A DNA stretch of 64,000 nucleotides from positions 3,596,001 through 3,660,000 of the forward strand of contig JBNRSN020000053.1 in NCBI GenBank assembly GCA_051313645.2, written 5' to 3'. This document shows positions 28,301-60,953 of the stretch, one piece after another (position 1 is the stretch's first letter; every line of letters starts with the position of its first letter). Made by a program: the position numbers and the translations under genes. The notes beneath the pieces were generated by a model, which saw only the letters and a program-made list of their open reading frames with translations, was not told the DNA's origin and did no database searches. Source of the stretch: Centroscyllium fabricii. Taxonomy: Eukaryota.

Positions 28301-29073
28301 GTGTTTCTGTGAAGGTAGTTTCCGCTCTTTTGAAATACGCAGTAATTTGGCTGTGATCTGACAGAGGTGTTAGCGGTTTGACTGTGAACGCTCTGAGAGA
28401 GGAAGGATCCAGATCCGTAATCATATAGTCTATGGTGCTAGTGCCAAGAAGTGAAGAGTAGGTTGGTTTTCCTAGGGAGTCCCCTCTGAACCTACCGTTG
28501 ACAATGTACAGCCCCAGGCTTCGACAGATCTGCAGGAGCTGTTTTCCGTATGCGTTTGTTTGTTTGTCATAATTATACCTGTGTGAGTGGCAAGGGAGAT
28601 CAAATTGGTTATTCCCAAAAATGTAACTATTCCCCCTAGAGCTGATAACATCAGGTTCTTCGCCCGTTCTTGCATTTAGGTCCCCGCAGATCAACACGTT
28701 TCCCAGGGCCTGGAAATGGTTAATCTCTCTCTCGATAGTGGGGAAGGTGTCCTCTTTGGAGTATGGAGAATCTATAGGGGGGATATAGATTGCGCAGATG
28801 AAAACATCCTGCCTGCTCGAGATTGTGCCTTTCTTCATCTTGAGCCATATATGATTTTCGCCCTTCTTTATTAGTTCAATGCAATGGCTGATCTCTGTTT
28901 TAATCCAAATCAACATGCCTCCGGAGTCTCTGCCCTGGGTTACTCCTGGCAGTTTGTTGGAGGGCACTGACAGCTCTGTGTACCCGGGGGGGCACCCAGT
29001 GGACCCTTCTCCTCTGCACCAGGTTTCCTGCAAAAAAATTATGTCCAGATCTTTGATTTCCTGTAAGAACCTC
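25342..29073 (-). mobile_element. RTE-X-like LINE, slightly 5'-truncated, inserted in the satellite
   Basis: 3' tail (TGAAAG)n after AATAAA, with an uninterrupted EN-RT ORF. No TSD is evident and the clade assignment is tentative. Confidence 0.8.
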
Positions 29074-38100: not shown

Positions 38101-41100
38101 AGTCCCCAACCCCCAATAAATGGAACAGTCCCCGGTCCCCAAAGAATGGAACAGTCCCCAATCCTCATTGAATGGAACAGTCCCCGGTCCCCGTTGAATG
38201 GAACAGTCCCCGGTCCCCATTGAATGGAACAGTCTTCGGTCCCCATTGAATGGAACAGTCCCCGGTCCCTGTTGAATGGAACAGTCCCCGGTCCCCATTG
38301 AATTGAACAGGTACCAGTCCTCGTTGCATGGAACAGTCCTCGTCCCCGTTGAATGGATCAATCCCTGGTTCCCGTTGAATGCAACAGTCCCTGGTCCCCA
38401 TTGAATGGAACATTCCCCAGTCCCCATAGAATGGAACAGATCCCAGTCCCCATTCAATGGAACAGTGCCCCATCCCCATTGAATGGAACAGTCCACGGGT
38501 CCATTGAATGGAAGAATCCCCAATCCCCATTGAATGGAACAGTCCACGGGCCCATTGAATGGAATAGTCCCCAATTCCCATTGAATGGAACTGTCCTCAA
38601 TCCCCATTGAATGGAACAGTTCTGAGTTCCCATTGAATGGAACAGTCCCCGGTCCCCAATGAATGGCACAGTCCCCGGTCCCCAAAGAATGGAACAGTCC
38701 CCAATCCCCAAGGAATGGAACAGTCCCCGGTCCCCATTGAATGGAAAAGTCCTCGGTCCTCATTGAATGGAACAATCCCCAATCCCCAATGAATGAAAAA
38801 GTCCCTGGTCCTCATTGAACGGAACAGTTCCCAGTCCCCAATGGACGGAACAGTCCCCGATCCCCAATAAATGGAACAGTCCCCGATCACCAATCCCCAA
38901 TGAATGGAACAGTCCCCATCCCCATTGAATGGAAACGTCCCCTGTCCTCACTGAATGGAACAGTCTCCGGTCCCCATTGAATGGAACAGTCTTCGGTCCC
39001 CATTGAATGGAACAGTCTTTGGTCCCCATTGAATGGAACAGTCCCCGGTCCCTGTTGAATGGAACAGATACCAGTTCTCCTTGCATGGAACAGTCCTCGG
39101 ACCCCGTTGAATGGATCAGTCCCTGGTTCCAGTTACATGGAACAGTCCCTTGTCCCCATTGAATGTAACATTCCCTGGTCCCCATGGAATGGAACAGTCC
39201 CCGGTCTCCATGGAATGGAACAGTCCATGGGACACAATGAATGGAACAGTCCCCAGTCTCCGTTGAATGGAACAGTCCCCGGTCCCCATTGAATGGAACA
39301 ATCCCCGGCCCTCATTGAATGGAACAGTCCACGGTCCCCGTTAAATGGAACAGTCCCCGGTTCCTGTTTAATGGCACAGACCCCAGTCGCCATTTAATGG
39401 AACAGATACCGGTCCTCATTGAATGGAACAGTCTTCGGTCCCCATTGAATGGAACAGTCCCCGGCCCTCGTTGAATGGAACAGTCCTCCGTCCCCGTTGA
39501 ATGGAACTGTCCTCGGTCCCCATTGAATGGTACTATCCCCGATCCCCAATAAATGGAACAGTCCCCAGCCCTCATTGAATGGAACAGTCTTCGGTCCCCA
39601 TTGAATGGAACAATCCCCAGTCCCTGTTCAATGGAACAGTCCCCGGTCCCCATTGAATGGAACAGATACCGGTCCTCGTTGAATGGAACAGTCCTCGGTC
39701 CCCGTTGAATGCAACAGGGTCCGGTTCCCGTTGAATGGAACAGTCCCCGGTCCCCATTGAATGGAACAGTCTCTGGTCAACATGGAGTGGAACAGTCCCC
39801 AGTCTCCATGGAACGGAACAGTCACCGTCCCCATGCAATGAAACAGTCCCTGGTCCCCATGGAATGGAACAGACCCCAATCCCCAATGAATGGAACAGTC
39901 CCTGGTCCCCATTTAATGGAACAGTCCCTGGTCCCCATTAAATGGAACAGTCCCTGGTCCCCATGGAATGAAACAGTTCCCGGTCCCCCAATGAATGGAA
40001 CAGTCCCTGGTCCCCATTTAATGGAATGGTCCACGGTCCCCAATGAATGGAACAGTCCCTGGTCCCCATGGAATGGAACAGACCCTAATCCCCAATGAAT
40101 GGAACAGTCCCTGGTCCCCATTTAATGGAACAGTCCCTGGTCCCCATTGAATGGAACAGTCCCCAACCCCAATTAATGGAATAGTCCCTGGTCCTGAATG
40201 AATGGAACAGTCCCCAATCCCCAATAAATGGAACAGTCCCCGATCCCCAATCGCCAATTAATGTAACAGTCCACGGGCCCATTGAATGGAACAGTCCCCA
40301 ATCCACATTGAATGGAACAGATCCCAGTCCCCATTCAATGGAACAGTGCCCCATCCCCATTGAATGGAACAGTCCACGGGCCCATTGAATGGAACAGTCC
40401 CCAATCCCCATTGAATGGAACAGTCCACGGGCCCATTGAATGGAACAGTCCCCAATCCCCATTGAATGGAACTGTCCTCAATCCCCATTGATTGGAACAG
40501 TTCCCAGTTCCCATTGAATGGAACAGTACCCGGTCCCCAATGAATGGAACAGTCCCCGGTCCCCAAACAATGGAACAGTCCCCAATCCCCAATGAATGGA
40601 ACAGTCCCCGGTCTCCATTGAATGGAAAAGTCCTCGGTCCCCATTGAATGGAACAGTCCCCAATCCCCAATGAATGAAACAGTCTCTGGTCCTCATTGAA
40701 CGGAACAGTTCCCAGTCCCCAATGGACGGAACAGTCCCCGATCCCCAATAAATGGAACAGTCCCCGATCCCCAACCCCCAAAGAATGGAACAGTCCCCAT
40801 CCCCATTGAATGGAACCGTCCCCTGTCCTCATTGAATGGAACAGTCCCCGGTCCCCATTGAATGGAACAGTCTTCGGTCCCCATTGAATGGAACAGTCTC
40901 CGGTCCCTGTTGAATGGAACAGTCCTCGGTCCCCGTTGAATGGATCAGTCCCTGGTTCCCGTTACATGGAACAGTCCCTTGTCACCATTGAATGTAACTT
41001 TCCCCGGTCCCAATGAAATGGAACAGTCCCCAGTCTCCATTGAATGGAACAGTCCCCGGTCCCCATTGAATGGAACAGTACCCGGCCCTCGTTGAATGGA

Positions 41101-44100
41101 ATAGTCCTCGGTCCCCGTTGAATGGAACAGTCCCTGGTTCCTGTTTAATGGAACAGTCCCCAGTCTCCATTGAATGGAACACATACCGGTCCTCATTGAA
41201 TGGAACAATCTTCGGTCCCCATTGAATGGAACTGTCCCCAGCCCTCGTTGAATGGAACAGTCCTCGGTCCCCGTTGAATGGAACTGTCCCCGGTCCCCGT
41301 TAAATGGTACTATCTCCGATCCCCAATAAATGGAACAGTCCCCGGTCCCCATTGAATGGAACAGTCCCCGATCCCCATTGAATGGAACAGTGCCCGGTCC
41401 TCATTGAATGGATCAGTCTTCGATCCCCATTGAATAGAGCAGTCCTCGGTCCCCGTTGAATGGAACAGTCCCCAGTTTCCGTTGAACGGAAAAGCCCCGG
41501 TACCCATTGAATGGAACAGTCTCCGGTCCCCAAGGAGTGGAACAGTCCCCAGTCTCCATGGATAGGAACAGTAACCGTCCCCATGGAATGGAACAGACCC
41601 CAATCCCCAATGAATGGAACAGTCCCTGATCCCCATTTAATGGAACAGTCCCTGGTCCCCATTGAATGGAACAGTCCCTGGTCCCCATGGAATGAAACAG
41701 TTCTCGGTCCCCCAATGAATGGAAAAGTCCCCGGTCCCCATTTAATGGAACAGTCCCCGGTCCCCAATGAATGGAACAGTCCCTGGTCCCTATGGAGTGG
41801 AACAGACTCCAATCCCCAATGAATGGAACAGTCCCTGGTCCCCATTGAATGGAAAAGTCCCCGGTCCTCATTGAATGGAACAGTCCACGGGCCCATTGAA
41901 TGGAACAGTCCCCAATCTCCATTGAATGGAACTGTGCTCAATCCCCATTGAATGGAACAGTCCCCGGTCCCCGTTGAATGGAACTGTCCCCGGTTCCCAA
42001 AGAATGGGACTGTCCCCGATCCCCAATGAATGGAACAGTCCCCGGTCCCCATTGAATGGAAAAGTCCCTGGTCCCCATTGAATGGAACAGTCCCCAACCC
42101 CAATTAATGGAATAGTCCCTGGTCCTGAATGAATGGAACAGTCCCCAATCACCAATAAATGGAACAGTCCCCGATCCCCAATCGCCAATGAATGTAACAG
42201 TCCACGGGCCCATTGAATGGAACAGTCCGCAATCCACATTGAATGGAACAGATCCCAGTCCCCATTCAATGGAACAGTGCCCCATCCCCATTGAATGGAA
42301 CAGTCCACGGGCCCATTGAATGGAACTGTCCCCAATCCCCATTGAATGGAACAGTCCACGGGCCCATTGAATGGAACAGTCCCCAATCCCCATTGAATGG
42401 AACTGTCCTCAATCCCCATTGATTGGAACAGTTCCCAGTTCCCATTGAATGGAACAGTACCCGGTCCCCAATGAATGGAACAGTTCCCCGGTCCCCAAAC
42501 AATGGAACAGTCCCCAATCCCCAATGAATGGAACAGTCCCCGGTCTCCATTGAATGGAAAAGTCCCCGGTCCCCATTGAATGGAACAGTCCCCAATCCCC
42601 AATGAATGAAACAGTCTCTGGTCCTCATTGAACGGAACAGTTCCCAGTCCCCAATGGACGGAACAGTCCCCGATCCCCAATAAATGGAACAGTCCCCGAT
42701 CCCCAACCCCCAAAGAATGGAACAGACCCCATCCCCATTGAATGGAACCGTCCCCTGTCCTCATTGAATGGAACAGTCCCCGGTCCCCATTGAATGGAAC
42801 AGTCTTCGGTCCCCATTGAATGGAACAGTCCCCGGTCCCTGTTAAATGGAACAGTCCTCGGTCCCCGTTGAATGGATCAGTCCCCGGTTCCCGTTACATG
42901 GAACAGTCCCTTGTCACCATTGAATGTAACTTTCCCCGGTCCCCATGGAATGGAACAGTCCCCAGTCTCCATTGAATGGAACAGTCCCCGGTCCCCATTG
43001 AATGGAACAGTACCCGGCCCTCGTTGAATGGAACAGTCCTCGGTCCCCGTTGAATGGAACAGTCCCTGGTTCCTGTTTAATGGAACAGTCCCCAGTCTCC
43101 ATTGAATGGAACACATACCGGTCCTCATTGAATGGAACAATCTTCGGTCCCCATTGAATGGAACTGTCCCGGCCCTCGTTGAATGGAACAGTCCTCGGTC
43201 CCCGTTGAATGGAACTGTCCCCGGTCCCCGTTAAATGGTACTATCTCCGATCCCCATTGAATGGAACAGTCCCCGGTCCCCAAAAAATGGAACAGTCTCC
43301 GGTCCTCATTGAATGGATCAGTCTTCGATCCCCATTGAATAGAGCAGTCCTCGGTCCCCGTTGAATGGAACAGTCCCCAGTTCCCGTTGAACGGAAAAGT
43401 CCCCGGTACCCATTGAATGGAACAGTCTCCGGTCCCCAAGGAGTGGAACAGTCCCCAGTCTCCATGGATAGGAACAGTAACTGTCCCCATGGAATGGAAC
43501 AGACCCCAATCCCCAATGAATCGAACAGTCCCTGATCCCCATTTAATGGAACAGTCCCTGGTCCCCATGGAATGGAACAGTCCCTGGTCCCCATGGAATG
43601 AAACAGTTCCCGGTCCCCCAATGAATGGAACAGTCCCCGGTCCCCATTTAATGGAACAGTCCCCGGTTCCCAATGAATGGAACAGTCCCTGGTCCCTATG
43701 GAATGGAACAGTCCCTGGTCTCCATTGAATGGAAAAGTCCCTTGTCCCCATGGAATGAAACCGTTCCCGGTCCCCCAATGAATGGAACAGTCTCTGGTCC
43801 CCAACGAATGGAACTGACCCCATCCCCATTGAATCGAACAGTCCGCGGCTCCCAACAAATGGAACAGTCCCCGGTTCTCCAATGAATGGAACAGTCCCCA
43901 GTACCCATTGAATGGAACAGTCCCCGGTCCCCATTGAATGGTACAGTCCACGGAACTCAATGAATGGAACAGTCCCCAGCCCCCAATGAATGTAATAGTC
44001 CCCGGTCCCCGTTGAATGGAACAGTCCCCGGTCCCCGTTGAATGGATCAGTCTTCGGTCCCCATTGAATGGAACAGTCCCCGGTCCTCGTTGAATGGAGC

Positions 44101-47100
44101 AGTCCTCGGTCCCCGTTGAATGGAACAATCCCCAGTTCCCGTTGAACAGAAAAGTCCCCGGTACCCATTGAATGGAACAGTCTCCGGTCCCCATGGAGTG
44201 GAGCAGTCCCCAGTTTCCATGGAAAGGAACAGTCACCGTCCCAATGGAATGGAACAGTCCCCGGTTCTCCAATGAATGGAACATTCCCCAGTACCCATTA
44301 AATGGAACAGTCCCCGGTCCCCATTGAATGGTACAGTCCACGGGACTCAATGAATGGAACAGTCCCCAGCCCCCAATGAATAGAACAGTCCCCGGTCCCC
44401 AATTAATGGAACAGTCCTCAATTCCCATTGAATGGAACAGTCACCGGTCCCCAATGAATGGAAGAGTCCCTGGTCCCCATTAAATTGAACAGTCCCCAGA
44501 GCCCATTGAATGGAACAGTCCCCAATCCCCATTGAATGGAACAGTCCCCGGGCCCATTGAATGGAGCAGTCCCCAATCCCCATTGAATGGAACTGTCCTC
44601 AATCCCCATTGCATGGAACAGTTCCCAGTTCCCATTGAATGAAACAGTCCCCGGTCCCCAATAAATGGAACAGTACCCGGTCCCCATTGAATGGAACAGT
44701 CCCCAAGCCCCAATGAATGGAACAGTCCCTGGTCCTCATTGAACAGAATAGTTCCTGGTCCCCAATGGACGGAACAGTCCCCGATCCCCAATAAATGGAA
44801 CAGTCCCCGATCCCCAATCCCCAATTAATGGAACAGTCCCCATCCCCATTGAATTGAACTGTCCCCGGTCCTCATTGAATGTAACAGTCCCCGGTCCCCC
44901 TTGAATGGAACAGTCTTCAGTCCCCATGGAATGGAGCAGTCCTCGGTCCTCGTTAAATGGAACAGTCCCCAACCCCCAATAAATGGAACAGTCCCCGGTC
45001 CCCAAAGAATGGAACAGTCCCCAATCCTCATTGAATGGAACAGTCCCCGGTCCCCGTTGAATGGAACAGTCCCCGGTCCCCATTGAATGGAACAGTCTTC
45101 GGTCCCCATTGAATGGAACAGTCCCCGGTCCCTGTTGAATGGAACAGTCCCCGGTCCCCATTGAATTGAACAGGTACCAGTCCTCGTTGCATGGAACAGT
45201 CCTCGTCCCCGTTGAATGGATCAATCCCTGGTTCCCGTTGAATGCAACAGTCCCTGGTCCCCATTGAATGGAACATTCCCCAGTCCCCATAGAATGGAAC
45301 AGATCCCAGTCCCCATTCAATGGAACAGTGCCCCATCCCCATTGAATGGAACAGTCCACGGGTCCATTGAATGGAAGAATCCCCAATCCCCATTGAATGG
45401 AACAGTCCACGGGCCCATTGAATGGAATAGTCCCCAATTCCCATTGAATGGAACTGTCCTCAATCCCCATTGAATGGAACAGTTCTGAGTTCCCATTGAA
45501 TGGAACAGTCCCCGGTCCCCAATGAATGGCACAGTCCCCGGTCCCCAAAGAATGGAACAGTCCCCAATCCCCAAGGAATGGAACAGTCCCCGGTCCCCAT
45601 TGAATGGAAAAGTCCCCGGTCCTCATTGAATGGAACAATCCCCAATCCCCAATGAATGAAAAAGTCCCTGGTCCTCATTGAACGGAACAGTTCCCAGTCC
45701 CCAATGGACGGAACAGTCCCCGATCCCCAATAAATGGAACAGTCCCCGATCACCAATCCCCAATGAATGGAACAGTCCCCATCCCCATTGAATGGAAACG
45801 TCCCCTGTCCTCACTGAATGGAACAGTCTCCGGTCCCCATTGAATGGAACAGTCTTCGGTCCCCATTGAATGGAACAGTCTTTGGTCCCCATTGAATGGA
45901 ACAGTCCCCGGTCCCTGTTGAATGGAACAGATACCAGTTCTCCTTGCATGGAACAGTCCTCGGTCCCCGTTGAATGGATCAGTCCCTGGTTCCAGTTACA
46001 TGGAACATTCCCTTGTCCCCATTGAATGTAACATTCCCTGGTCCCCATGGAATGGAACAGTCCCCGGTCTCCATGGAATGGAACAGTCCGCGGGACACAA
46101 TGAATGGAACAGTCCCCAGTCTCCGTTGAATGGAACAGTCCCCGGTCCCCATTGAATGGAACAATCCCCGGCCCTCATTGAATGGAACAGTCCACGGTCC
46201 CCGTTAAATGGAACAGTCCCCGGTTCCTGTTTAATGGCACAGACCCCAGTCGCCATTTAATGGAACAGATACCGGTCCTCATTGAATGGAACAGTCTTCG
46301 GTCCCCATTGAATGGAACAGTCCCCGGCCCTCGTTGAATGGAACAGTCCTCCATCCCCGTTGAATGGAACTGTCCTCGGTCCCCATTGAATGGTACTATC
46401 CCCGATCCCCAATAAATGGAACAGTCCCCAGCCCTCATTGAATGGAACAGTCTTCGGTCCCCATTGAATGGAACAATCCCCAGTCCCTGTTCAATGGAAC
46501 AGTCCCCGGTCCCCATTGAATGGAACAGATACCGGTCCTCGTTGAATGGAACAGTCCTCGGTCCCCGTTGAATGCAACAGGGTCCGGTTCCCGTTGAATG
46601 GAACAGTCCCCGGTCCCCATTGAATGGAACAGTCTCTGGTCAACATGGAGTGGAACAGTCCCCAGTCTCCATGGAACGGAACAGTCACCGTCCCCATGCA
46701 ATGAAACAGTCCCTGGTCCCCATGGAATGGAACAGACCCCAATCCCCAATGAATGGAACAGCCCCTGGTCCCCATTTAATGGAACAGTCCCTGGTCCCCA
46801 TTAAATGGAACAGTCCCTGGTCCCCATGGAATGAAACAGTTCCCGGTCCCCCAATGAATGGAACAGTCCCCGGTCCCCATTTAATGGAATGGTCCACGGT
46901 CCCCAATGAATGGAACAGTCCCTGGTCCCCATGGAATGGAACAGACCCTAATCCCCAATGAATGGAACAGTCCCTGGTCCCCATTTAATGGAACAGTCCC
47001 TGGTCCCCATTGAATGGAAAAGTCCCTTGTCCCCATGGAATGGAACTGACCCCATCCCCAATGAAGGGAACAGTCTCCAGTCTCCATGGAATGCTACAGT

Positions 47101-48689
47101 CCCCAGTACTCATTGCATGGAACAGTCCCCGGTCCCCATTGAATGGTACAGTCCACGGGACTCAATGAATGGAACATTCCCCATCCCCCAATGAATGTAA
47201 CAGTCCCTGGTCCCCAATTAATGGAACAGTCCTCAATTCCCATTGAATGGATCAGTCACCGTTCCCCAATGAATGGAAGAGTCCCTGGTCCCCATTAAAT
47301 TGAACAGTCCCCAGACCCCATTGAAAGGAACAGTCCCCAAGCCCCATTGAATGGAACAGTCCACGGGTCCATTGAATGGAGCAGTCCCCAATCCCCATTG
47401 AATAGAACTGTCCTCAATCCCCATTGCATGGAACAGTTCCCAGTTCCCATTGATAGGAACAGTCCCCGGTCCCCAATCAATGGAACAGTACCCGGTCCTC
47501 ATTGAATGGAACAGTCCCCAATCCCCAATGAATGGAACAGTTCCCGGTCCCCATTGAATGGAAAAGTCCCCGGTCCCCATTGAATGGAACAGTCCCCAAT
47601 CCCCAATGAATGGAACAGTCCCTGGTCCTCATTGAACAGAACAGTTCCCGGTTCCCAATGAATGGAACAGTCCCCGATCCCCAATAAATGGAACAGTCCC
47701 CGATCACCAATCCCCAATGAATGGAACAGTCCCCGGTCCCCAAAGAATGGAGCAGTCCCCAATCCTCATTGAATGGAACAGTCCCCGGTCCCCATTGAAT
47801 GGAACAGTCTTCAGTCCCCATTGAATGGAATAGTCCCCGGTCCCTGTTGAATGGAACAGTCCCCGGTCCCCATTGAATTGAACAGATACCAGTCCTCGTT
47901 GCATGGAACAATCCTCGGTCCCCGTTGAATGGATCATTCCCCGGTTCCAGTTGAATGCAACAGTCCCCGGTCCCCATTGAATTGAACAGATACCAGTCCT
48001 CGTTGCATGGAACAATCCTCGGTCCCCGTTGAATGGATCATTCCCCGGTTCCAGTTGAATGCAACAGTCCCTGGTCCCCATTGAATGGAACAGTCTTCGG
48101 TCCCCATTGAATGGAACATTCCCCGGTCTCCATGGAATGGAACAGTCCCCAGTCTCCATGGAATGGAACAGTCCACGGGACACAATGAACGGAACAGTCC
48201 CCAGTCTCCATTGAATGGAACAGTCCCCTGTTCCCATTGAATGGAACAGTCCCCGGTTCCTGTTAAATGGAACAGTCCCCGGTCCACATTGAATGGAACA
48301 GATACTGGTGCTCATTGAATGGAACAGTCTTCGGTCCCCATTGAATGGAACAGTCCCCGGCCCTCGTTGAATGGAACAGTCTTTGGTCCCCGTTGAATGG
48401 AACAGTTCCCGGTTCCTGTTGAATGGAACTATCCCCGGTCCCCGTTGAATGGAACTGTCCCCGATCCCCAATAAATAGAACAGTCCCCGGTCCCCATTGA
48501 ATGGAACAGTCCCCAATCCCCATGGAATGGAACAGTCCCCGGTCCCCATGGAATGGAACAGTCCCCGGACCCCATTGAATGGAACAGTCCCTGGTCCCCA
48601 TGGAATGAAACAGTCCCCGGTCCCCATTGAATGGAACAGTCCCCAGTCCTCATTGAATGGAACAGTCCCTGGTCCTCATTGAATGGAAC

Positions 48690-50839
48690 TGTAACGGTTG
48701 GGTGTAAGTGGAATGAAGGCGGGGCCCAAATGCAGAGACACTGAAACGTTTACAAAACTACACTCCTTTATTACTAAAACCCCATATAATACCCTAAACA
48801 TACAATTATATAGAACACATATACAACACAAGTCTTATAAACAGACCGGCACAAACTTCCCAACACAGTGAGCAATGAATAGAGGGGTGCTACACAATCC
48901 AGCGCGCCATTCTCCCCAAGAATACCAGTCCTGGCATAACTGTCCAACCTAAAGAGAACCGAGCAAGTCCTCCTCAGCGAGCATGACATCTCACTCCACC
49001 CTCTACGTAGAGGATGTGGGAACAGCTTATGCTTCCAGATTACCAATGTCCAAACCAGGGCTCGGATGAAGAGATGAATGTCCATGTAGTAGAAATGGGT
49101 CCGACCTACTTCTTCTGCTCTGTCACAGAGACTTAACCCCATGGCAATCAGGCAGTAGCGCACCAGATCTACTGGCAGGGGGACTCCCTTACCAAACAGA
49201 TGAATGTCCATTGCTGAGTTCCCAATAGCAGGGCGCACTGTCAAGGCGGAGGGAAATGAGTTCCACCTCAATGCCCCTGATGGGCAACCCAGCCTGAGCA
49301 CCTGAAATTGCAAAGTACAAGTACAAGCTGAGTCAGTCGATCTGCAACCTCCTTGCCTCTGACGGCCACTCAGCACACCAGCAGAAAACCACCTCCTTCC
49401 AGTGGCCTGTAGAATGAATAATGAATCTCCAGTCCCAAGACGCATTACCATCAAATGATCCCGCATCTGCTCTCAGCCAACCTCCTGATTATATCCTAAA
49501 CCCAGCAAGTACCCTATTGGGTGATAGCCAATAATCCTGAGGGGATGAGAGCAGAGCACAACTAACACATGCATAGATAATTGAACAGTTAATCACATAA
49601 CTAGGGAACCTATTCCTTGAAACAGCTGTGGAGCAACAGCAAAAACAGTTTCTAATATTTAAAGGAACAGGCACCCCGTGACAGGACCCCCCCCTTAAGG
49701 GCCGACAGTGATGGCCCAAATACCCAATAAGCCGAAATAGGGTGGGCGGAGGGTACAAAGAGGAGACAACAGTCTACAAAACAAAAATTTTACAGAGTAT
49801 TTAAACGCTACAGTGTCTGCTGGGCCCCATTTGGCGGGATCATTCTGTAACGGTTGGGTGTATTCGGAATGAAGGCGGGGCCCAAATGCAGAGACACTGA
49901 AACGTTTACAAAACTACACTCCTTTATTACTAAAACCCCATATAATACCCTAAACATACAATTATATAGAACACATATACAACACAAGTCTTATAAACAG
50001 ACCGGCACAAACCTCCCAACACAGCGAGCAATGAATAGAGGGGTGCTACGCAATCCAGCGCGCCATTCTCCCCAAGAATACCAGTCCTGGCATAACTGTC
50101 CAACCTAAAGAGAACCGAGCAAGTCCTCCTCAGCGAGCATGACATCTCACTCCACCCTCTACGTAGAGGATGTGGGAACAGCTTATGCTTCCAGATTACC
50201 AATGTCCAAACCAGGGCTCGGATGAAGAGATGAATGTCCATGTAGTAGAAATGGGTCCGACCTACTTCTTCTGCTCTGTCACAGAGACTTAACCCCATGG
50301 CAATCAGGCAGTAGCGCACCAGATCTACTGGCAGGGGGACTCCCTTACCAAACAGATGAATGTCCATTGCTGAGTTCCCAATAGCAGGGCGCACTGTCAA
50401 GGCGGAGGGAAATGAGTTCCACCTCAATGCCCCTGATGGGCAACCCAGCCTGAGCACCTGAAATTGCAAAGTACAAGTACAAGCTGAGTCAGTCGATCTG
50501 CAACCTCCTTGCCTCTGACGGCCACTCAGCACACCAGCAGAAAACCACCTCCTTCCAGTGGCCTGTAGAATGAATAATGAATCTCCAGTCCCAAGACGCA
50601 TTACCATCAAATGATCCCGCATCTGCTCTCAGCCAACCTCCTGATTATATCCTAAACCCAGCAAGTACCCTATTGGGTGATAGCCAATAATCCTGAGGGG
50701 ATGAGAGCAGAGCACAACTAACACATGCATAGATAATTGAACAGTTAATCACATAACTAGGGAACCTATTCCTTGAAACAGCTGTGGAGCAACAGCAAAA
50801 ACAGTTTCTAATATTTAAAGGAACAGGCACCCCGTGACA
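48690..50839 (-). mobile_element. Non-autonomous LTR element, copy 1 (two 994-bp LTRs, 162-bp internal region)
   Basis: LTRs at 48690-49683 and 49846-50839 with TG...CA ends, 5-bp TSD GGAAC, and a G-rich PPT (AAG-Gn-TCC on the minus strand) next to the 3' LTR. Confidence 0.92.
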
Positions 50840-53800
50840 GGAACAGTCTTCAGTCCCCATTGAATGGAACAGTCCCCGGTCCCTGTTGAATGGAACAGTC
50901 CCCGGTCCCCATTGAATTGAACAGATACCAGTCCTCGTTGCATGGAACAATCCTCGGTCCCCGTTGAATGGATCATTCCCCGGTTCCAGTTGAATGCAAC
51001 AGTCTCTGGTCCCCATTGAATGGAACAGTCTCCGGTCCCCATTGAATGGAACATTCCCCGGTCTCCATGGAATGGAACAGTCCCCGGTCTCCATGGAATG
51101 GAACAGTCCACGGGACACAATGAATGGAACAGTCCCCAGTCTCCATTGAATGGAACAGTCCCCGGTTCCCATTGAATGGAACAGTCCCCGGTTCCTGTTA
51201 CATGGAACAGTCCCCGGTCCACATTGAATGGAACAGATACCGGTGCTCATTGAATGGAACAGTCTTCGGTCCCCATTGAATGGAACAGTCCCCGGCCCTC
51301 GTTGAATGGAACAGTCTTCGGTCCCCGTTGAATGGAACAGTTCCCGGTTCCTGTTGAATGGAACTGTCCCCGGTCCCCGTTGAATGGAACTGTCCCCGAT
51401 CCCCAATAAATAGAACAGTCCCCGGTCCCCATTGAATGGAACAGTCCCCAATCCCCATGGAATGAAACAGTCCCCGGTCCCCATGGAATGGAACAGTCCC
51501 CGGACCCCATTGAATGGAACAGTCCCTGGTCCCCATGGAATGAAACAGTCCCCGGTCCCCATTGAATGGAACAGTCCCCAGTCCTCATTGAAAGGAACAG
51601 TCCCTGGTCCTCATTGAATGGAACCGTCTTTGGTCCCCATTGAATGGAACAATCCCCGGTCCCTGTTCAATGGAACAGTCCCCGGTCCCCATTGAATTGA
51701 ACAGATATCGGTCCTCATTGAATGGATCAGTCTTCGGTCCCCATTGAATGGACCAGTCCCCGGTCCTCGTTGAATGGAACAGTCCCCGGTCCCCGTTGAA
51801 TGGAACAGTCCCCGGTTCCCGTTGAATGGAACAGTCCCCGGTCCCCATTTAATGGAACAGTCTCCGGTCCACATGGAGTGGAACAGTCCCCAGTCTCCAT
51901 GGAACGGAACAGTCACCGTCCCCATGCAATGAAACAGTCCCTGGTCCCCATGGAATGGAACAGACCCCAATCCCCAATGAATGGAACAGTCCCTGGTCCC
52001 CATTTAATGGAACAGTCCCTGGTCCCCATTAAATGGAACAGTCCCTGGTCCCCATGGAATGAAACAGTTCCCAGTCCCCCAATGAATGGAACAGTCCCCG
52101 GTCCCCATTTAATGGAATGGTCCCCGGTCCCCAATGAATGGAACAGTCCCTGGTCCCCATGGAATGGAACAGACCCCAAACCCCAATGAATGGAACAGTC
52201 CCAGGTCCCCATTTAATGGAACAGTCCCTGGTCCCCATTGAATGGAAAAGTCCCTTGTCCCCATGGAATGGAACTGACCCCATCCCCAATGAAGGGAACA
52301 GTCTCCAGTCTCCATGGAATGGAACAGTCCCCAGTACTCATTGAATGGAACAGTCCCCGGTCCCCATTGAATGGTACAGTCCACGGGACTCAATGAATGG
52401 AATAGTCCCCAGCCCCCAATGAATGTAACAGTCCCCGGTCCCCAATTAATGGAACAGTCCTCAATTCCCATTGAATGGATCAGTCACCGGTCCCCAATGA
52501 ATGGAACAGTCCCCCATCCCCATTGAATTGAACAGTCCCCGGACCCCATTGAATGGAACAGTCCCCAAGCGCCATTGAATGGAACAGTCCACGGGCCCAT
52601 TGAATGGAGCAGTCCCCAATCTCCATTGAATGGAACTGTCCTCAATCCCCATTGCATGGAACAGTTCCCAGTTCCCATTGAAAGGAACAGTCCCCGGTCC
52701 CCAATAAATGGAACAGTACCCGGTCCCCAAACAATGGAACAGTCCCCAATCCCCAATGAATGGAACAGTCCCCGGTCTCCATTGAATGGAAAAGTCCCCG
52801 GTCCCCATTGAATGGAACAGTCCCCAATCCCCAATGAATGGAACAGTCCCTGGTCCTCATTGAACAGAACCGTTCCGGGTGCCCAATGAATGGAACAGTC
52901 CCCGATCCCCAATAAATGGAACAGTCCCCGATCTCCAATCCCCAATGAATGGAACAGTTCCCGGTCCCCAAAGAATGGAACAGTCCCCAATCCTGATTGA
53001 ATGGAACAGTCCCCGGTCCCCATTGAATGGAACAGTCTTCGGTCCCCATTGAATGGAACAGTCCCCGGTCCCTGTTGAATGGAACAGTCCCCGGTCCCCA
53101 TTGAATTGAACAGATACCAGTCCTCGTTGCATGGAACAGTCCTCGGTCCGCGTTGAATGGATCATTCCCCGGTTCCAGTTGAATGCAACAGTCCCTGGTC
53201 CCCATTGAATGGAACAGTCTTCGGTCCCCATTGAATGGAACATTCCCCGGTCTCCATGGAATGGAACAGTCCCCAGTCTCCATGGAATGGAACAGTCCGC
53301 GGGACACAATGAATGGAACAGTCCCCAGTCTCCATTGAATGGAACAGGCCCCGGCCCTCGTTGAATGGAACAGTCCTCGGTCCCCGTTGAATGGAACAGT
53401 TCCCGGTTCCTGTTGAATGGAACTGTCCCCGGTCCTCATTGAATGGAACTGTCCCCGATCCCCAATAAATTGAACAGTCCCCAGTCCCCATTGAATGGAA
53501 CAGTCCCCAGTCTCCATGGAATGGAACAGTCCCCGGCCCTCATTGAATGGAACAGTCTTCGGACCCCATTGAATGGAACAGTCCCCGGCCCTCGTTGAAT
53601 GGAACAGTCCTTGGTCCCCATTCAATGGAACAGTGTCCGGTCCTCCTTGAATGGAACAATCCTCGGTCCCCATTGAATGGAACAGTCCCCAATCCCCATG
53701 GAATGGAACAGTCCCCAATCCCAAATGAATGGAACAGTCCCCGGTCCCCATGGAATGGAACAGTCCCCGGTCCCCATTGAATAGAACAGTCCCCGGTCCC

Positions 53801-56800
53801 CATTGAATGGAACAGTCCCCGGTCCCCATTGAATGGAATAGTCCCTGGTCCCCATGGAATGGAACAGTCCCCAAACCCAATGAATGGAACAGTCCCCGGT
53901 CCCCATGGAATGGAACAGTCTTGGGTCCCCAAATGAATGGAACAGTCCCCCGATCCCCATTGAATGGTACAGTCCACGGGACTCAATGAATGGAATAGTC
54001 CCCAGCCCCCAATGAATGTAACAGTCCCCGGTCCCCAATTAATGGAACAGTCCTCAATTCCCATTGAATGGATCAGTCACCGGTCCCCAATGAATGGAAC
54101 AGTCCCCCATCCCCATTGAATTGAACAGTCCCCGGACCCCATTGAATGGAACAGTCCCCAAGCGCCATTGAATGGAACAGTCCACGGGCCCATTGAATGG
54201 AGCAGTCCCCAATCTCCATTGAATGGAACTGTCCTCAATCCCCATTGCATGGAACAGTTCCCAGTTCCCATTGAAAGGAACAGTCCCCGGTCCCCAATAA
54301 ATGGAACAGTACCCGGTCCCCAAACAATGGAACAGTCCCCAATCCCCAATGAATGGAACAGTCCCCGGTCTCCATTGAATGGAAAAGTCCCCGGTCCCCA
54401 TTGAATGGAACAGAACCGTTCCGGGTGCCCAATGAATGGAACAGTCCCCGATCCCCAATAAATGGAACAGTCCCCGATCCCCAATCCCCAATGAATGGAA
54501 CAGTTCCCGGTCCCCAAAGAATGGAACAGTCCCCAATCCTGATTGAATGGAACAGTCCCCGGTCCCCATTGAATGGAACAGTCTTCGGTCCCCATTGAAT
54601 GGAACAGTCCCCGGTCCCTGTTGAATGGAACAGTCCCCGGTCCCCATTGAATTGAACAGATACCAGTCCTCGTTGCATGGAACAGTCCTCGGTCCGCGTT
54701 GAATGGATCATTCCCCGGTTCCAGTTGAATGCAACAGTCCCTGGTCCCCATTGAATGGAACAGTCTTCGGTCCCCATTGAATGGAACATTCCCCGGTCTC
54801 CATGGAATGGAACAGTCCCCAGTCTCCATGGAATGGAACAGTCCGCGGGACACAATGAATGGAACAGTCCCCAGTCTCCATTGAATGGAACAGGCCCCGG
54901 CCCTCGTTGAATGGAACAGTCCTCGGTCCCCGTTGAATGGAACAGTTCCCGGTTCCTGTTGAATGGAACTGTCCCCGGTCCTCATTGAATGGAACTGTCC
55001 CCGATCCCCAATAAATTGAACAGTCCCCAGTCCCCATTGAATGGAACAGTCCCCAGTCTCCATGGAATGGAACAGTCCCCGGCCCTCATTGAATGGAACA
55101 GTCTTCGGACCCCATTGAATGGAACAGTCCCCGGCCCTCGTTGAATGGAACAGTCCTTGGTCCCCATTCAATGGAACAGTGTCCGGTCCTCCTTGAATGG
55201 AACAATCCTCGGTCCCCATTGAATGGAACAGTCCCCAATCCCCATGGAATGGAACAGTCCCCAATCCCAAATGAATGGAACAGTCCCCGGTCCCCATGGA
55301 ATGGAACAGTCCCCGGTCCCCATTGAATAGAACAGTCCCCGGTCCCCATTGAATGGAACAGTCCCCGGTCCCCATTGAATGGAATAGTCCCTGGTCCCCA
55401 TGGAATGGAACAGTCCCCAAACCCAATGAATGGAACAGTCCCCGGTCCCCATGGAATGGAACAGTCTTGGGTCCCCAAATGAATGGAACAGTCCCCCGAT
55501 CCCCATTGAATGGAACAGTCCCTGGTCCCCATGGAATGGAACAGTCCCTAATCCCCAATGAATGGAACAGTCCCTGGTCTCCATTTAATGGAACAGTCCC
55601 CAGTCCCCATTTAATGGAACAGTCCCCAGTCCCCATTTAATGGAACAGTCCCTGGTCCCCATGGAATGGAACAGTCCCCGGTCCCTAATGAATGGAACAG
55701 TCCCCGGTCCCCAATGAATGGAACAGTACCCCATCCCCATTGAATGGAACAGTGCGTGGGTACCAATGAATGGAACAGTCCCCAGGCCCCATTGAATGGA
55801 ACAGTCCCCGGTCCCCATTGAATGGAACAGTACCCCGTCCCTAATGAATGGAACAGTCCCCGGTCCCCAATGAATGGAACAGTCCCCAATCCCCATTAAA
55901 TGGAACAGTCCCATGTCCGCTATGAATGGAACAGTCCCTGGTCCCCAATAAATGGAACAGTCCCCAATCTGTATTGAATGGAACAGTTCCCAATCCCCAA
56001 TGAATGGAACAGTCCCCGGTTCTCCAATAAATAGAACAGTCCCAGAACCCATTGAATGGAACAGACCCCGGTCCCCATTGAATGGTACAGTCCATGGGAC
56101 CCAATGGATGGAACAGTCCCCGGCACCCAATGGATGTTACAGTCCCCAGTCCCCAATTAATGGAGCAGTCCCCAATCCCCATTTAATGGAACAGCCACCG
56201 GTCCCCAATGAATGGAAGAGTCCCCGGTCCCCATGGAATGGAACAGTCCCCGGACCCCAGTGAATGGAACAGTCCCCAATCCCCATTAAATGGAACAGTC
56301 CCTGGTCCCCATGGAATGGAACAGTCCCTAATCCCCAATGAATGGAACAGTCCCTGGTCTCCATTTAATGGAACAGTCCCCAGTCCCCATTTAATGGAAC
56401 AGTCCCTGGTCCCCATGGAATGGAACAGTCCCCGGTCCCTAATGAATGGAACAGTCCCCGGTCCCCAATGAATGGAACAGTACCCCATCCCCATTGAATG
56501 GAACAGTGCGTGTGTACCAATGAATGGAACAGTCCCCAGGCCCCATTGAATGGAACAGTCCCCGGTCCCCATTGAATGGAACAGTCCCCCGTCCCTAATG
56601 AATGGAACAGTCCCCGGTCCCCAATGAATGGAACAGTCCCCAATCCCCATTAAATGGAACAGTCCAATGTCCGCTATGAATGGAACAGTCCCTGGTCCCC
56701 AATAAATGGAACAGTCCCCAATCTGCATTGAATGGAACAGTTCCCAATCCCCAATGAATGGAACAGTCCCCGGTTCTCCAATAAATAGAACAGTCCCAGA

Positions 56801-58789
56801 ACCCATTGAATGGAACAGACCCCGGTCACCATTGAATGGTACAGTCCATGGGACCCAATGGATGGAACAGTCCCCGGCACCCAATGGATGTTACAGTCCC
56901 CAGTCCCCAATTAATGGAGCAGTCCCCAATCCCCATTTAATGGAACAGCCACCGGTCCCCAATGAAGGGAAGAGTCCCCGGTCCCCATGGAATGGAACAG
57001 TCCCCGGACCCCAGTGAATGGAACAGTCCCCAACCCCCATTAAATGGAACAGTCCCTGGTCCGCTATGAATGGAACAGTCCCTGGTCCCCAATAAATGGA
57101 ACAGTCCCCAATCTGCATTGAATGGAACAGTTCCCAATCCCCATTGAATGGAACAGTCCCCGGTTCCCATTGAATGGAATAGTCCCCAATTCCCAATGAA
57201 TAGAACAGTCCCCAGTCCCCAATTGAACGGAACAGTCCCCGGTCCCCATTGGATGGAACAGTCCCTGGTCCCCATGGAATGGAACAGTTCGCTGGCCCCA
57301 ATGAATGGAGCAGTCCCGAATCCCCATGGAATGGAACAGTCCACGGGTCCCAATGAATGGAACAGACCTCAGTCCACATTGAATGGAACAGTCCCCAGTC
57401 CCCATTGAATGGAACAGTCCACGGGACCCAATGAATGGAACAGTCGCCGGCCCCCAATGAATGCAACAGTCCCTGGTCCCCATTCAAAGGAACAGTCCAC
57501 GGTCCTCCTTGAATGGAACAGTCCTCGGTCCCCATTGAATGGAACAGCCCCGGTTCCTGTTGAATGGAAGAGTCCCCGGTCCCCCTGGAATGGAACAGTC
57601 CCCGGTCCCCCTTGAATGGAACAGCCCGGTCCCCATTGAATGGAACAGTCCCTGACCCCAATGAATGTAACAGTCCCCGGTCCCCATGGAATGGAGCAGT
57701 CCCTGGTCACCATGGAATGAAGCTGTCCCCGGTCCCCCAATGAATGGAACAGTCCCCGGTCCCCATTGAATGGAACAGTCCCTGATCCCCATGGAATGGA
57801 ACAGTCCCCAATCCCCAAATAATGGAACAGTGACTGGTCCCCATTTAATGGAACAGTCCCCGGTCCCCAATGAATGGAACAGTCTCTGGTCCCCATGGAA
57901 TGGAACAGTCCCTGGTCCCTCAATGAATGGAACAGTCCCCAGTCCCCAGTGAATGGAACAGTCCCCCGTCCCCATTGAATGGAACAGTCCACGTTACCCA
58001 AAGAATGGAACTGTCCCCGGCCCATAATGAATGTAACAGTCCCTCGTCCCCATTCAATGGAACAGACCCCTGTCCTCATTGAATGGAACAGTCGTCGGTC
58101 CCCGTTGAATGGGACAGTCCCCGGTTCCTGTTGAATGGAACAGTCCCCGGTCCCCCTGGAATTGAACAGTCCCCGGTCCCCATTGAATGGAATAGTCCCT
58201 GGCCCCCAATGAATGTAACAGTCCCCGGTCCCCAATTAATAGATCAGCCCCCAATCCCCATTGAATGGAACAGTCACCGGTCCCCATTGAATGGAACAGT
58301 CCCTGGTCTGCTATGAATTGAACAGTCCCCGGTACCCCAATGAATGGAACAGTCCCCGGTCCCCATTGAATGGAACAGTGCCTGGTCCCCATGTAATGGA
58401 ACAGTCCCTAATCCCCAATGAATGGAACAGTCCCTGGTCCCCATTTAATGGAACAGTCCCCAGTCCCTATTTAATGGAACAATCCCTGGTCCCCATGGAA
58501 TGGAACAGTCCCTGGTACCCCAATGAATGGAACAGTCCCCGGTCCCCAATGAATGGAACAGTAACCCATCCCCATTGAATGGAACAGTGCGCCTGTACCA
58601 ATGAATGGAACAGTCCCCAGTCCCCATTGAATGGGACAGTCCCCGGTCCCCATTGAATGGGACAGTCCATGGGACCCAATGAATGGAACAGTCCCCGGCC
58701 CCCAATGAATATAACAGTCCCTGATCCCCATTTAATGGAACAGACCCCGGTCCTCATTGGATGGAACAGTCATCAGTCCCTGTTGAATG

Positions 58790-60895
58790 TGTCACAGGGG
58801 GCCTGTTCCTTTAAATATTAGAAACAGTTTTTGCTGTGATTCCACAGCTGTTTTAAGGAATAGGTTCCCCTGTTATGTTATTAACTGTTCAATTATCTAT
58901 GTATGTGCTAGTTGTGCTCTGCTCTCATCCCCTCAGGATTATTGGCTATCACCCAATAGGGTACTTGCTGGGTTTTGGTATTTAATCAGGAGGTTGGCTG
59001 AGAGCAGATGCGGGATCATTTGATGGTAATGCGTCTTGGGACTGGAGATTCATTATTCATTCTACAGGCCACTGGAAGGAGGTGGTTTTCTGCTGTTGTG
59101 CTGAGTGGCCGTCAGAGGCAAGGAGGTTGCAGATCGACTGACTCAGCTTGTACTTGTACTCTGCTATTTCAGGTGCTCAGGCTGGGTTGCCCAACAGGGG
59201 CATTGGGGTGGAACTCATTTCCCTCCGCCTTGACAGTGCGCCCTGCTATTGGGAACTCAGCAATGGACATTCATCTGTTTGGTAAGGGAGTTCCCCTGCC
59301 AGTAGACCTGGTGCGCTACTGCCTGTGACGGAGCAGAAGAAGTAGGTCGGACCCATTTCTACTACATGGACATTCATTTCTTCATCCGAGCCCTGGTTTG
59401 GACATTGGTAATCTGGAAGCATAAGCTGTTCCCAAATCCTCTATGTAGAGGGTGGATTGAGATGTCATGCTCGCTGAGGAGGACTTGCTCGGTTCTCTTT
59501 AGGTTGGACAGTTATGCCTGGACTGGTATTCTTTGGGAGAATGGCGCGCTGGATTGCGTGGCACCCCTCTATTCATTACTCGCTATGTTGGGAAGTCTGT
59601 GCCAGTCTGTTTATAAGACTTGTGTTAAATATGTGTCCAATATAAATGTATGTTTTTGGTATTCTATAGTGTTTTAGTAATAAAGGAGTTTAGTTTTAAT
59701 AGACGTTTCAGTGTCTCTGCATATGGGCCCCGCCTTCATTCCGTTTACACCCAACCGTTACAGAATGATCCCGTCAAATGGGGCCCAGCAGACACTGTAG
59801 CGTTTAAATACTCTGTAAAAAAAAATTTGTAGACTGTTGTCTCCTCTTTGTACCCTCCGCCCACCCTATTTCGGCTTATTGGGTATTTGGGCCGTCACTG
59901 TCGGCCCTTAAGGGGGGGGTCCTGTCACAGGGGGCCTGTTCCTTTAAATATTAGAAACAGTTTTTGCTGTGATTCCACAGCTGTTTTAAGGAATAGGTTC
60001 CCCTGTTATGTTATTAACTGTTCAATTATCTATGTATGTGCTAGTTGTGCTCTGCTCTTATCCCCTCAGGATTATTGGCTATCACCCAATAGGGTACTTG
60101 CTGGGTTTTGGTATTTAATCAGGAGGTTGGCTGAGAGCAGATGCGGGATCATTTGATGGTAATGCGTCTTGGGACTGGATATCCATTATTCATTCTACAG
60201 GCCACTGGAAGGAGGTGGTTTTCTGCTGTTGTGCTGAGTGGCCGTCAGAGGCAAGGAGGTTGCAGATCGACTGACTCAGCTTGTACTTGTACTCTGCTAT
60301 TTCAGGTGCTCAGGCTGGGTTGCCCAACAGGGGCATTGGGGTGGAACTCATTTCCCTCCGCCTTGACAGTGCGCCCTGCTATTGGGAACTCAGCAATGGA
60401 CATTCATCTGTTTGGTAAGGGAGTTCCCCTGCCAGTAGACCTGGTGCGCTACTGCCTGTGACGGAGCAGAAGAAGTAGGTCGGACCCATTTCTACTACAT
60501 GGACATTCATTTCTTCATCCGAGCCCTGGTTTGGACATTGGTAATCTGGAAGCATAAGCTGTTCCCAAATCCTCTATGTAGAGGGTGGATTGAGATGTCA
60601 TGCTCGCTGAGGAGGACTTGCTCGGTTCTCTTTAGGTTGGACAGTTATGCCTGGACTGGTATTCTTTGGGAGAATGGCGCGCTGGATTGCGTGGCACCCC
60701 TCTATTCATTACTCGCTATGTTGGGAAGTCTGTGCCAGTCTGTTTATAAGACTTGTGTTAAATATGTGTCCAATATAAATGTATGTTTTTGGTATTCTAT
60801 AGTGTTTTAGTAATAAAGGAGTTTAGTTTTAATAGACGTTTCAGTGTCTCTGCATATGGGCCCCGCCTTCATTCCGTTTACACCCAACCGTTACA
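58790..60895 (+). mobile_element. Non-autonomous LTR element, copy 2 (two 973-bp LTRs, 160-bp internal region)
   Basis: LTRs at 58790-59762 and 59923-60895 with TG...CA ends, 5-bp TSD GAATG and PPT aaggggggggtcc. Same family as copy 1, opposite orientation. Confidence 0.92.
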
Positions 60896-60953
60896 GAATG
60901 GAACAGTCCCCGGTTCCTGTTGAATGGAACGGTCCCTGGTCCACCTGGAATGG

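What the first reader, a model, noticed from the sequence alone, without database searches (positions are those of the whole stretch)
48690..60895. Non-coding long-LTR miniature retroelement with a Tf1/sushi-type 11-nt self-primer
Seen: both copies have LTRs of about 1 kb but only about 160 bp of internal sequence, with no gag or pol. After the 5' LTR, G then AATGATCCCGC (49834-49844) is the exact complement of GCGGGATCATT in the LTR (50610-50620), which starts 29 nt after the start of TATAAT (50644-50649), at the expected TSS. Copy 2 has the same layout (59010-59020 against 59764-59774, one G:U pair; TATTTAA at 58979). The internal region begins ATGGGGCCCAGCAGAC, resembling a decayed MDPAD-type gag start. 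Known: Tf1 primes with its first 11 nt. Inference: a TRIM-like parasite of a sushi-type element that keeps only the cis signals. Two independent insertions share the same structure, so it moved as a non-autonomous unit.
Basis: partly seen in the sequence, partly recalled or inferred. Interest (0 to 1): 0.7.

Follow-up and report, generated by a model that had tools for sequence, protein, structure and literature searches.

The report
Young self-priming non-coding LTR retrotransposon family
This is a 2.1-kb jumping element with no gag or pol gene and about 1,800 or more recent copies in a large animal genome; it likely starts its own copying with the first 11 letters of its RNA instead of a tRNA and likely borrows its enzymes from related gene-carrying elements, which makes it a clean new example of transposon biology already known from yeast and fish.

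Summary
Two independent insertions (LTRs 994 and 973 bp, interiors 162 and 160 bp, different 5-bp target duplications) sit in a 26-bp satellite. They belong to a young family: 1,808 exact LTR-PBS junctions genome-wide, median LTR divergence 0.3%, and the same short interior in 30 of 30 sampled copies. Self-priming is well supported by sequence: across 87 junctions of miniature and coding relatives, primer and PBS change together at 7 of 11 pairs, and the primer lies 29-31 nt after the TATA-like box in 83. The 'decayed gag start' is homologous to the gag start of coding sushi-type families, but it also forms a 41 kcal/mol predicted helix with U5, the second arm of the Tf1 'pretzel'. No coding element with the same LTR was found; abundant coding chromovirus families with shared ends are the likely helpers. 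The start site is untested (no RNA run). At 2.1 kb it is not a TRIM by the published size limit. A 225-codon open frame in the LTR is probably incidental. This scan has noted similar elements before, in fungi and in ray genomes. New variant of a known kind; interest 0.4.

The parts
48685..48689 (.). Copy 1 target-site duplication, left (GGAAC)
48690..49683 (-). Copy 1 3' LTR, 994 bp, TGTCAC...GTTACA
49688..49696 (-). Copy 1 polypurine tract, 4 nt before the 3' LTR
   Evidence: aligns to the PPT of coding families A and B
49688..49774 (-). 3' part of the interior, homologous (75-81%) to the 3' untranslated end of coding families A and B; includes a 6-bp hairpin at 49699-49717
49805..49828 (-). 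Leader arm (old gag start) predicted to pair with U5
49834..49844 (-). Copy 1 primer-binding site, 1 nt after the 5' LTR
49846..50839 (-). Copy 1 5' LTR, 994 bp
49877..49905 (-). U5 arm, complementary to the leader arm
49923..49928 (-). AATAAA poly(A) signal; it makes the predicted R region about 700 nt long
   Evidence: R length inferred
49930..50622 (-). 230-codon open frame in R (225 codons from the ATG at +14 of the predicted RNA); probably incidental
50590..50604 (-). Stretch just after the primer, predicted to pair with the LTR's last 13 nt (possible third helix)
   Evidence: not found at this place in family 2 or in coding families
50610..50620 (-). Predicted 11-nt self-primer (predicted first bases of the RNA)
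50644..50649 (-). TATAAT box, 29 nt before the primer
50840..50844 (.). Copy 1 target-site duplication, right
58785..58789 (.). Copy 2 target-site duplication, left (GAATG)
58790..59762 (+). Copy 2 5' LTR, 973 bp (TATA-like box 58979, primer 59010-59020, AATAAA 59679-59684, U5 arm 59703-59731)
59763..59922 (+). Copy 2 interior, 160 bp (PBS 59764-59774, leader arm 59780-59803, PPT 59910-59918)
59923..60895 (+). Copy 2 3' LTR, 973 bp
60896..60900 (.). Copy 2 target-site duplication, right
29074..58789 (.). Host 26-bp satellite array (about 1,139 units) into which both copies inserted

Best explanation
The two elements are recent insertions of a high-copy LTR retrotransposon family without gag or pol, derived from a sushi-type chromovirus, which likely primes reverse transcription with the first 11 nt of its own RNA and is likely copied and integrated by the proteins of coding sushi-type families in the same genome. 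Shown: anatomy, copy number, fixed interior, target duplications, homology of both interior ends to coding family A, covariation of primer and PBS. Inferred: RNA starts at the primer's G, 29 nt after TATA; the U5 arm pairs with the old gag start and holds the PBS in a loop; the RNA's 5' end pairs with the PBS (a crossing, pretzel-type fold); a helper's RNase H cuts after nt 11 as in Tf1; the PPT primes the plus strand; the helper's integrase makes the 5-bp duplication. The gag start survives because it is the pairing arm, not as a mere relic. The long LTR likely arose by repeating a 120-150-bp piece of a family-A-like R region.
For: 1,808 exact LTR-PBS-arm junctions, 0 in the reversed control; 30 of 30 first loci carry the full interior and a second LTR; interior 152-174 bp, median LTR divergence 0.3%, 5- or 6-bp duplications in 20 of 22 non-tandem copies among the 27 of 30 that the script could delimit. 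Of 30 loci picked by the LTR end alone (4,872 matches), 12 are LTRs of miniatures, 15 solo LTRs with duplications, 3 unclear, 0 lead into gag. Among 87 distinct junctions the best PBS complement pairs fully in 52 of 58 miniatures and 25 of 29 coding elements, lies 29-31 nt after a TATA-like box in 56 of 58 and 27 of 29, and 7 of 11 pairs show compensatory changes. U5:leader helix -40.9 kcal/mol, 0 of 200 shuffles as good; -41.9 in coding family B, -27.9 in A (1 of 200); 96.7% of 91 cells paired, 3 pairs changed on both sides. Coding families A and B carry gag, RT, RNase H, integrase, SH3_Tf2-1 and chromodomain, number 7,002 and 5,403 junctions, and have LTRs 99.5-100% identical in the four copies examined. 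Termini fit the sushi motif TGTYANR...CNTNACA (PMC3601003, passages). Tf1 mechanism and pretzel: PMC7175516 and bioRxiv 10.1101/2022.12.06.519325 (passages).
Against: The start site is not measured. Unconstrained folding does not choose the primer:PBS helix (mean pair probability 0.00-0.29 in 8 elements); nested folding cannot hold two crossing helices, and forcing it costs 1.8 kcal/mol. The third helix is seen only in family 1 (-12 kcal/mol in 4 of 4 copies; -1.4 to -3.6 at that place in the other 4 elements). The three two-sided changes in the U5 helix all separate family B from the rest, so they may be one lineage event, and I drew that structure from these same sequences. No helper is proven; family 1's LTR has no significant direct hit to family A's LTR, only links through sister miniatures. 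Only five tRNA types were tested.
Confidence: 0.85

Rival explanations
1. The miniatures are repeated internal deletions of one autonomous element with the same LTR, not a lineage that moves on its own.
For: Both ends of the interior are homologous to coding family A. Only the first 30 of thousands of matches were read per search, so a rare parent could be missed.
Against: One interior of 152-174 bp in all sampled copies; 0 of 30 LTR ends lead into gag; two pattern searches for this PBS or LTR end plus a gag-type ATG gave 13 and 15 matches, none a coding element with this LTR; subfamilies 5-14% apart all have young LTR pairs; a sister miniature family with LTRs 62-69% alike has the same layout.
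Confidence: 0.05
2. Reverse transcription is primed by a tRNA or a tRNA half, and the match to the LTR is secondary.
For: Interior +19 to +28 is complementary to 10 nt of the genome's tRNA-Met(CAT) 5' half, in families 1 and 2.
Against: No TGG occurs before +17, so no CCA end can pair next to the LTR; the best tRNA-Met match in the first 14 nt is 5 nt; coding A and B keep only 7 and 6 nt of match; the 10-nt stretch is the U5-pairing arm; the PBS varies between families while staying paired with the LTR. 17 other tRNA genes of 4 types gave at most 8 nt in the first 20.
Confidence: 0.04
3. The element is not non-coding: the 700-nt R region is an mRNA for a 225-residue protein, or is kept open for translation (for example to escape decay).
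For: The frame runs from +14 of the predicted RNA to the poly(A) signal; 64 of 137 distinct LTRs have a sense stretch of 200 or more codons without a stop, against 0 of 2,000 shuffles and 0.3% of order-2 simulations; none of 122 substitutions shared between copy clusters makes a stop in this frame (5.5 expected, P=0.004), while private ones make 6 (5.9 expected).
Against: 12 of 14 shared indels shift the frame; synonymous:non-synonymous is neutral, 33:89 against 34:82 expected (pN/pS 0.7-3.3); a second frame is just as depleted of new stops (1 against 7.4); young copy 2 keeps only 101 codons; 19 family-2 R regions have no ATG frame over 62 codons among their first four ATGs; no Pfam family; no homologue among 375 candidates of similar length.
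Confidence: 0.12
4. The two copies are by-products of satellite amplification or of assembly.
For: Both lie in one satellite array, 8 kb apart.
Against: Opposite orientation, different target duplications, 5% divergence; 29 of the other 30 loci checked have no such satellite in their flanks, the one exception being the window's own locus; an independent look at run X1 shows thousands of matching contigs (it may be the source sample).
Confidence: 0.01

Closest known systems
Tf1/sushi group of chromoviruses (Tf1, Tf2, Tj1, Tosmo1-3, sushi-ichi and other V-clade vertebrate elements)
   Same: PBS next to the LTR pairs with an 11-nt stretch after the TATA box; U5:leader helix; TGTYANR...CNTNACA ends; G-rich PPT; 5-bp duplications; coding relatives here have the chromodomain integrase.
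   Different: No gag or pol; LTRs of about 1 kb with a predicted R of about 700 nt against 310-425 nt from primer to LTR end in its coding relatives; third pretzel helix only weakly supported.
TRIMs (plants; biv-TRIM, PbTRIM, cestode TRIMs; Helenus and Ajax)
   Same: Two LTRs around a short interior that holds only PBS and PPT; solo LTRs and tandem LTR-interior arrays; interior, not LTR, resembles the likely helper (as reported for SMARTs and Helenus in PMC10886601).
   Different: 2,150 bp with 1-kb LTRs, outside the limit of under 1,000 bp and repeats of 100-250 bp (PMC6934838); PBS is not tRNA-derived; Pol II-type TATA rather than a tRNA or 5S promoter.
Mid-sized non-autonomous LTR families of sugar beet (PMC13570524)
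   Same: 1.5-4 kb size class for which that paper says no term exists; long LTRs with short interiors; tandem copies; helper often not traceable by LTR identity.
   Different: The PBS motifs reported there are tRNA-derived (section 25); this one is predicted to be self-primed and is in an animal.
Earlier unchecked notes of this scan (fungal self-priming miniatures; two notes from ray genomes)
   Same: Gene-less LTR element with a PBS that pairs with its own LTR; giant LTRs with a tiny interior in a ray.
   Different: Those ray copies were described as old; this family is young and high-copy. A look-up by sequence found no look-alike.

Membership tests
Tf1/sushi group (self-priming chromoviruses) | PBS complementary to an LTR stretch at the predicted RNA start, not to a tRNA 3' end | tested here: met
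   7 of 11 pairs covary
Tf1/sushi group (self-priming chromoviruses) | The primer is the actual 5' end of the RNA | not testable with these tools
   no RNA holder listed; spacing of 29-31 nt after TATA is indirect
Tf1/sushi group (self-priming chromoviruses) | Pretzel helix between U5 and the leader after the PBS | tested here: met
   (prediction and covariation only)
Tf1/sushi group (self-priming chromoviruses) | Pretzel helix between the LTR end and a stretch after the primer | tested here: inconclusive
   present in 4 of 4 family-1 copies, absent at that place in 4 other elements
Tf1/sushi group (self-priming chromoviruses) | RNase H cleavage after nt 11 | not testable with these tools
   needs a biochemical assay
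Tf1/sushi group (self-priming chromoviruses) | Own gag-pol with RT and chromodomain integrase | tested here: not met
   no such ORF in the element; present in coding families A and B. It is a derivative, not an autonomous member
Tf1/sushi group (self-priming chromoviruses) | RT phylogeny places the helpers in the V clade | not tested
   no tree built; assignment rests on Pfam domains, termini and self-priming
TRIM | Two direct repeats around a short non-coding interior with PBS and PPT; target duplication | tested here: met
TRIM | Under 1,000 bp (or 1,500 bp) with repeats of 100-250 bp | tested here: not met
   2,106-2,150 bp, LTRs 973-994 bp (limits from PMC6934838 and PMC13570524)
TRIM | PBS complementary to a tRNA | tested here: not met
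   no TGG before +17; five tRNA types compared; full tRNA set not compared
LARD | Longer than 4 kb with a long non-coding interior | tested here: not met
   interior 160 bp (limit from PMC13570524 section 42)
Non-autonomous LTR retrotransposon (broad sense) | Moves as a unit without coding capacity: many copies, same structure, separate target duplications | tested here: met

The most novel reading that the evidence does not exclude
These are an old, self-standing lineage of 'almost all LTR' parasites in vertebrate genomes that, needing no tRNA, can ride any sushi-type helper, and whose giant R region has become a compact mRNA: a frame running from the RNA start to the poly(A) signal that master lineages keep free of stop codons for the sake of translation itself.
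Probability: 0.12. Interest if true: 0.7.

Novelty: new variant of a known kind. Interest (0 to 1): 0.4.

Why it matters
Self-priming has been shown at the bench only in fission yeast and is inferred for vertebrate sushi elements. This family gives a large natural experiment: thousands of young copies, several primer variants that change in step with their PBS, and an interior trimmed to 160 bp, which marks out the smallest set of cis signals (PBS, U5-pairing arm, 90-bp 3' end, PPT). It predicts an exact start site and cut site. It also shows that the first codons of sushi gag double as an RNA helix. One further testable point: 16 of 17 sampled CCCG-type copies keep a G:U pair at primer position 1 across subfamilies up to 12% apart, so that base is likely not copied back into the PBS. 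None of this changes the known mechanism.

Tried and rejected
RNA evidence: no RNA holder listed; no statement on expression or start site follows. Runs X5 and X6 (other organism codes, share 0.20) gave only 1 and 10 low-depth contigs on the stretch, none across the PBS; not used as evidence of range. Same-LTR autonomous parent: looked for in 30 of 150 DUF4939 loci (the two with hits were inserted LTRs or a miniature), by two patterns and among 30 LTR ends; none found. C820 pair 3 kb apart is a duplicated solo LTR in another satellite, not a long element. Rfam on copy 2: only a chance-level hit, E 0.73. Protein Atlas gave no answer for the R frame. Satellite targeting: rejected, 0 of 29 other loci. 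tRNA test is partial: Gln(TTG), Gln(CTG), Lys(TTT), Cys(GCA), Met(CAT) only. Primary papers on Tf1 (PMC109269, PMC1369541, PMC231564) are not held, and Butler et al. 2001 was seen only as a citation; the mechanism is taken from passages of secondary papers. Seven literature searches listed no paper describing a self-primed non-autonomous LTR element in a vertebrate; most subscription journals, Repbase and Dfam could not be searched, and no supplements were read, so an existing entry is quite possible. The host species was not determined; 'vertebrate' is an inference from the element types and genome size.
Full report
Observation. The window holds two LTR elements inside a 26-bp satellite. Copy 1 (48690-50839, minus) has LTRs of 994 bp that differ at 6 sites, a 162-bp interior and the target duplication GGAAC. 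Copy 2 (58790-60895, plus) has LTRs of 973 bp that differ at 3 sites, a 160-bp interior and the duplication GAATG. The copies differ by 5.2-5.6% and a 23-nt indel, face opposite ways and have different duplications, so they inserted separately. One of 20,000 shuffled PBS sequences found a perfect complement in the LTR.

A family that moves as a unit. In the 7.2-Gb genome the junction query had 2,195 candidates; all 40 scored covered it in full, which is biased by the query. A 32-nt pattern of LTR end, PBS and arm has 1,808 exact matches and none reversed. The first 30 of these all continue through the short interior into a second LTR. For the 27 of 30 that the script could delimit (L089, L093, L108 dropped), interiors are 152-174 bp, LTR pairs differ by a median 0.3% (0-2.5%), 18 have 5-bp and 2 have 6-bp duplications, 5 are members of tandems and 2 scored none because the 3' end was miscalled (L087 is the locus of L021, which has a 5-bp duplication). 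A pattern for the LTR end alone has 4,872 matches; of the first 30, 6 are 5' LTRs and 6 are 3' LTRs of miniatures, 15 are solo LTRs with duplications, 3 are unclear and none leads into gag. Subfamilies 5-14% apart all have young LTR pairs, so several master lineages were recently active. A sister miniature family with the same layout exists.

Origin and helpers. A DUF4939 search gave 21,882 candidates. Two coding families were examined: A (LTR 540 bp, gag MDPADT) and B (LTR 551-575 bp, gag MNPADT). They carry gag, RT, RNase H, integrase, SH3_Tf2-1 and chromodomain and have 7,002 and 5,403 junction matches; these counts include broken and deleted copies. The first 43 nt of the miniature's interior align with the PBS and gag start of family A, and the last 90 nt with the 3' untranslated end and PPT of A and B at 75-81%. 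The last 12 nt of the LTR and a 15-nt U5 stretch are identical to family A. Family 1's LTR has no significant direct hit to A's LTR, but sister miniatures do, one with three copies of a segment of A's R region. Searches for a coding element with the miniature's own LTR found none: 13 matches were all family A without LTR similarity, and 15 were 6 family-A-like elements, 2 miniatures and 7 chance flanks. Family A is the closer relative; which family supplies proteins is inference.

Self-priming. Tf1 pairs its first 11 bases with the PBS and RNase H cuts between bases 11 and 12 (PMC7175516, passages). It needs a three-helix 'pretzel': primer:PBS and two helices between PBS-adjacent sequence and the LTR; the Tf1/sushi group includes vertebrate elements (bioRxiv 10.1101/2022.12.06.519325, passages; PMC6317226 and PMC4600332, passages). 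For 87 distinct junctions in my loci I looked for the best complement of the PBS anywhere upstream. It paired at all 11 positions in 52 of 58 miniatures and 25 of 29 coding elements, and it fell 29-31 nt after a TATA-like box in 56 of 58 and 27 of 29, a criterion not used in the search. Twelve PBS variants occur, and pairs 2, 3, 4, 6, 7, 8 and 9 change on both sides. Within the family itself, copies with PBS ...CCAGC have primer GCTGG... and those with ...CCCG have GCGGG....

The gag start is a helix arm. The stretch from +18 of the interior pairs with U5: -40.9 and -41.0 kcal/mol in the two window copies, -43.9 in family 2, -41.9 and -41.2 in B (0 of 200 shuffles each), -27.9 in A (1 of 200). 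On a 7-sequence alignment 96.7% of 91 cells pair and 3 of 13 pairs change on both sides; those three all set family B apart, and the structure was drawn from these sequences. This helix crosses the primer:PBS helix, so nested folding cannot show both; free folds gave the primer helix a probability of 0.00-0.29 and forcing it costs 1.8 kcal/mol. A third helix, between nt 17-31 of the RNA and the LTR end, is predicted in family 1 only. Termini match the sushi motifs of PMC3601003 (passages).

tRNA rival. No TGG occurs before +17. Seventeen tRNA genes of four types gave at most 8 nt of match in the first 20. tRNA-Met(CAT) from the genome matches 10 nt at +19 to +28, inside the U5-pairing arm, 5 nt in the first 14, and less in the coding families. 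The tRNA set is incomplete.

Is it non-coding? Copy 1's R region holds a 230-codon frame. Long stop-free sense stretches are common (64 of 137 LTRs at 200 codons or more; 0 of 2,000 shuffles), and shared substitutions make no stop in this frame against 5.5 expected. Against function: neutral synonymous ratio, the same depletion in a second frame, 12 of 14 shared indels shift the frame, copy 2 keeps 101 codons, family 2 lacks it, and there is no Pfam hit or homologue. I treat it as probably incidental (0.12 for function).

Comparison and novelty. It works like Tf1/sushi elements but lacks their genes; it is built like a TRIM but fails the size and tRNA criteria (PMC6934838, passages; PMC10886601, passages; PMC13570524, abstract and sections 25 and 42). 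Seven searches listed no paper on a self-primed non-autonomous vertebrate element, but Repbase, Dfam, most subscription journals and supplements were not seen. Unchecked notes of this scan report such elements in fungi and in ray genomes; they are leads, not support. No RNA run was listed, so the start site is open.

Verdict. Real, well supported by sequence, mechanism inferred from Tf1. New variant of a known kind; confidence 0.85; interest 0.4.

Noticed in passing
L135, L120, L129, L131, L144, L176; solo LTR at L062:427-1397: A sister miniature family (LTR about 970 bp, interior about 168 bp, same PBS and primer, LTR 62-69% like family 1; 1,538 candidates). L176's LTR holds three copies of a family-A R segment at 67-72%.
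   Followed up: partly
L003/L007, L004/L012, L026/L027, L030, L084-L086, L100/L101: Tandem arrays with three or four LTRs sharing one target duplication where both ends were seen.
   Followed up: partly
L225 (G000:C1:91048501-91057000): Tandem 2,879-bp units of family B that keep LTR, gag and part of pol only: a second kind of deletion derivative.
   Followed up: partly
window 49930-50622 (-) and 48774-49466 (-): Long open frame in R; shared substitutions avoid stops in two frames while shared indels break the frame. Not fully explained.
   Followed up: yes
window 25626-29138 (-): 1,171-codon open frame with AP endonuclease and RT (non-LTR element) sitting between two blocks of the 26-bp satellite.
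   Followed up: no
window 13891-17838 (-) and 8052-11906 (-): Two Ty3/gypsy-type open frames of 1,316 and 1,285 codons with RT, RNase H and integrase and no chromodomain hit; unrelated to the miniatures.
   Followed up: no
window about 60940-63130 (+): LINE fragment with RT directly after copy 2; 89% like an insertion found inside the family-A copy L064. The label 'CR1-like' is recalled, not from a call.
   Followed up: no
window 29074-58789: The 26-bp satellite shows recurring 33-bp variant units at repeated spacings, suggesting a higher-order repeat.
   Followed up: no
L062, L090/L163, L144, L157: Miniatures and their solo LTRs are often nested in each other or in coding family A copies.
   Followed up: no
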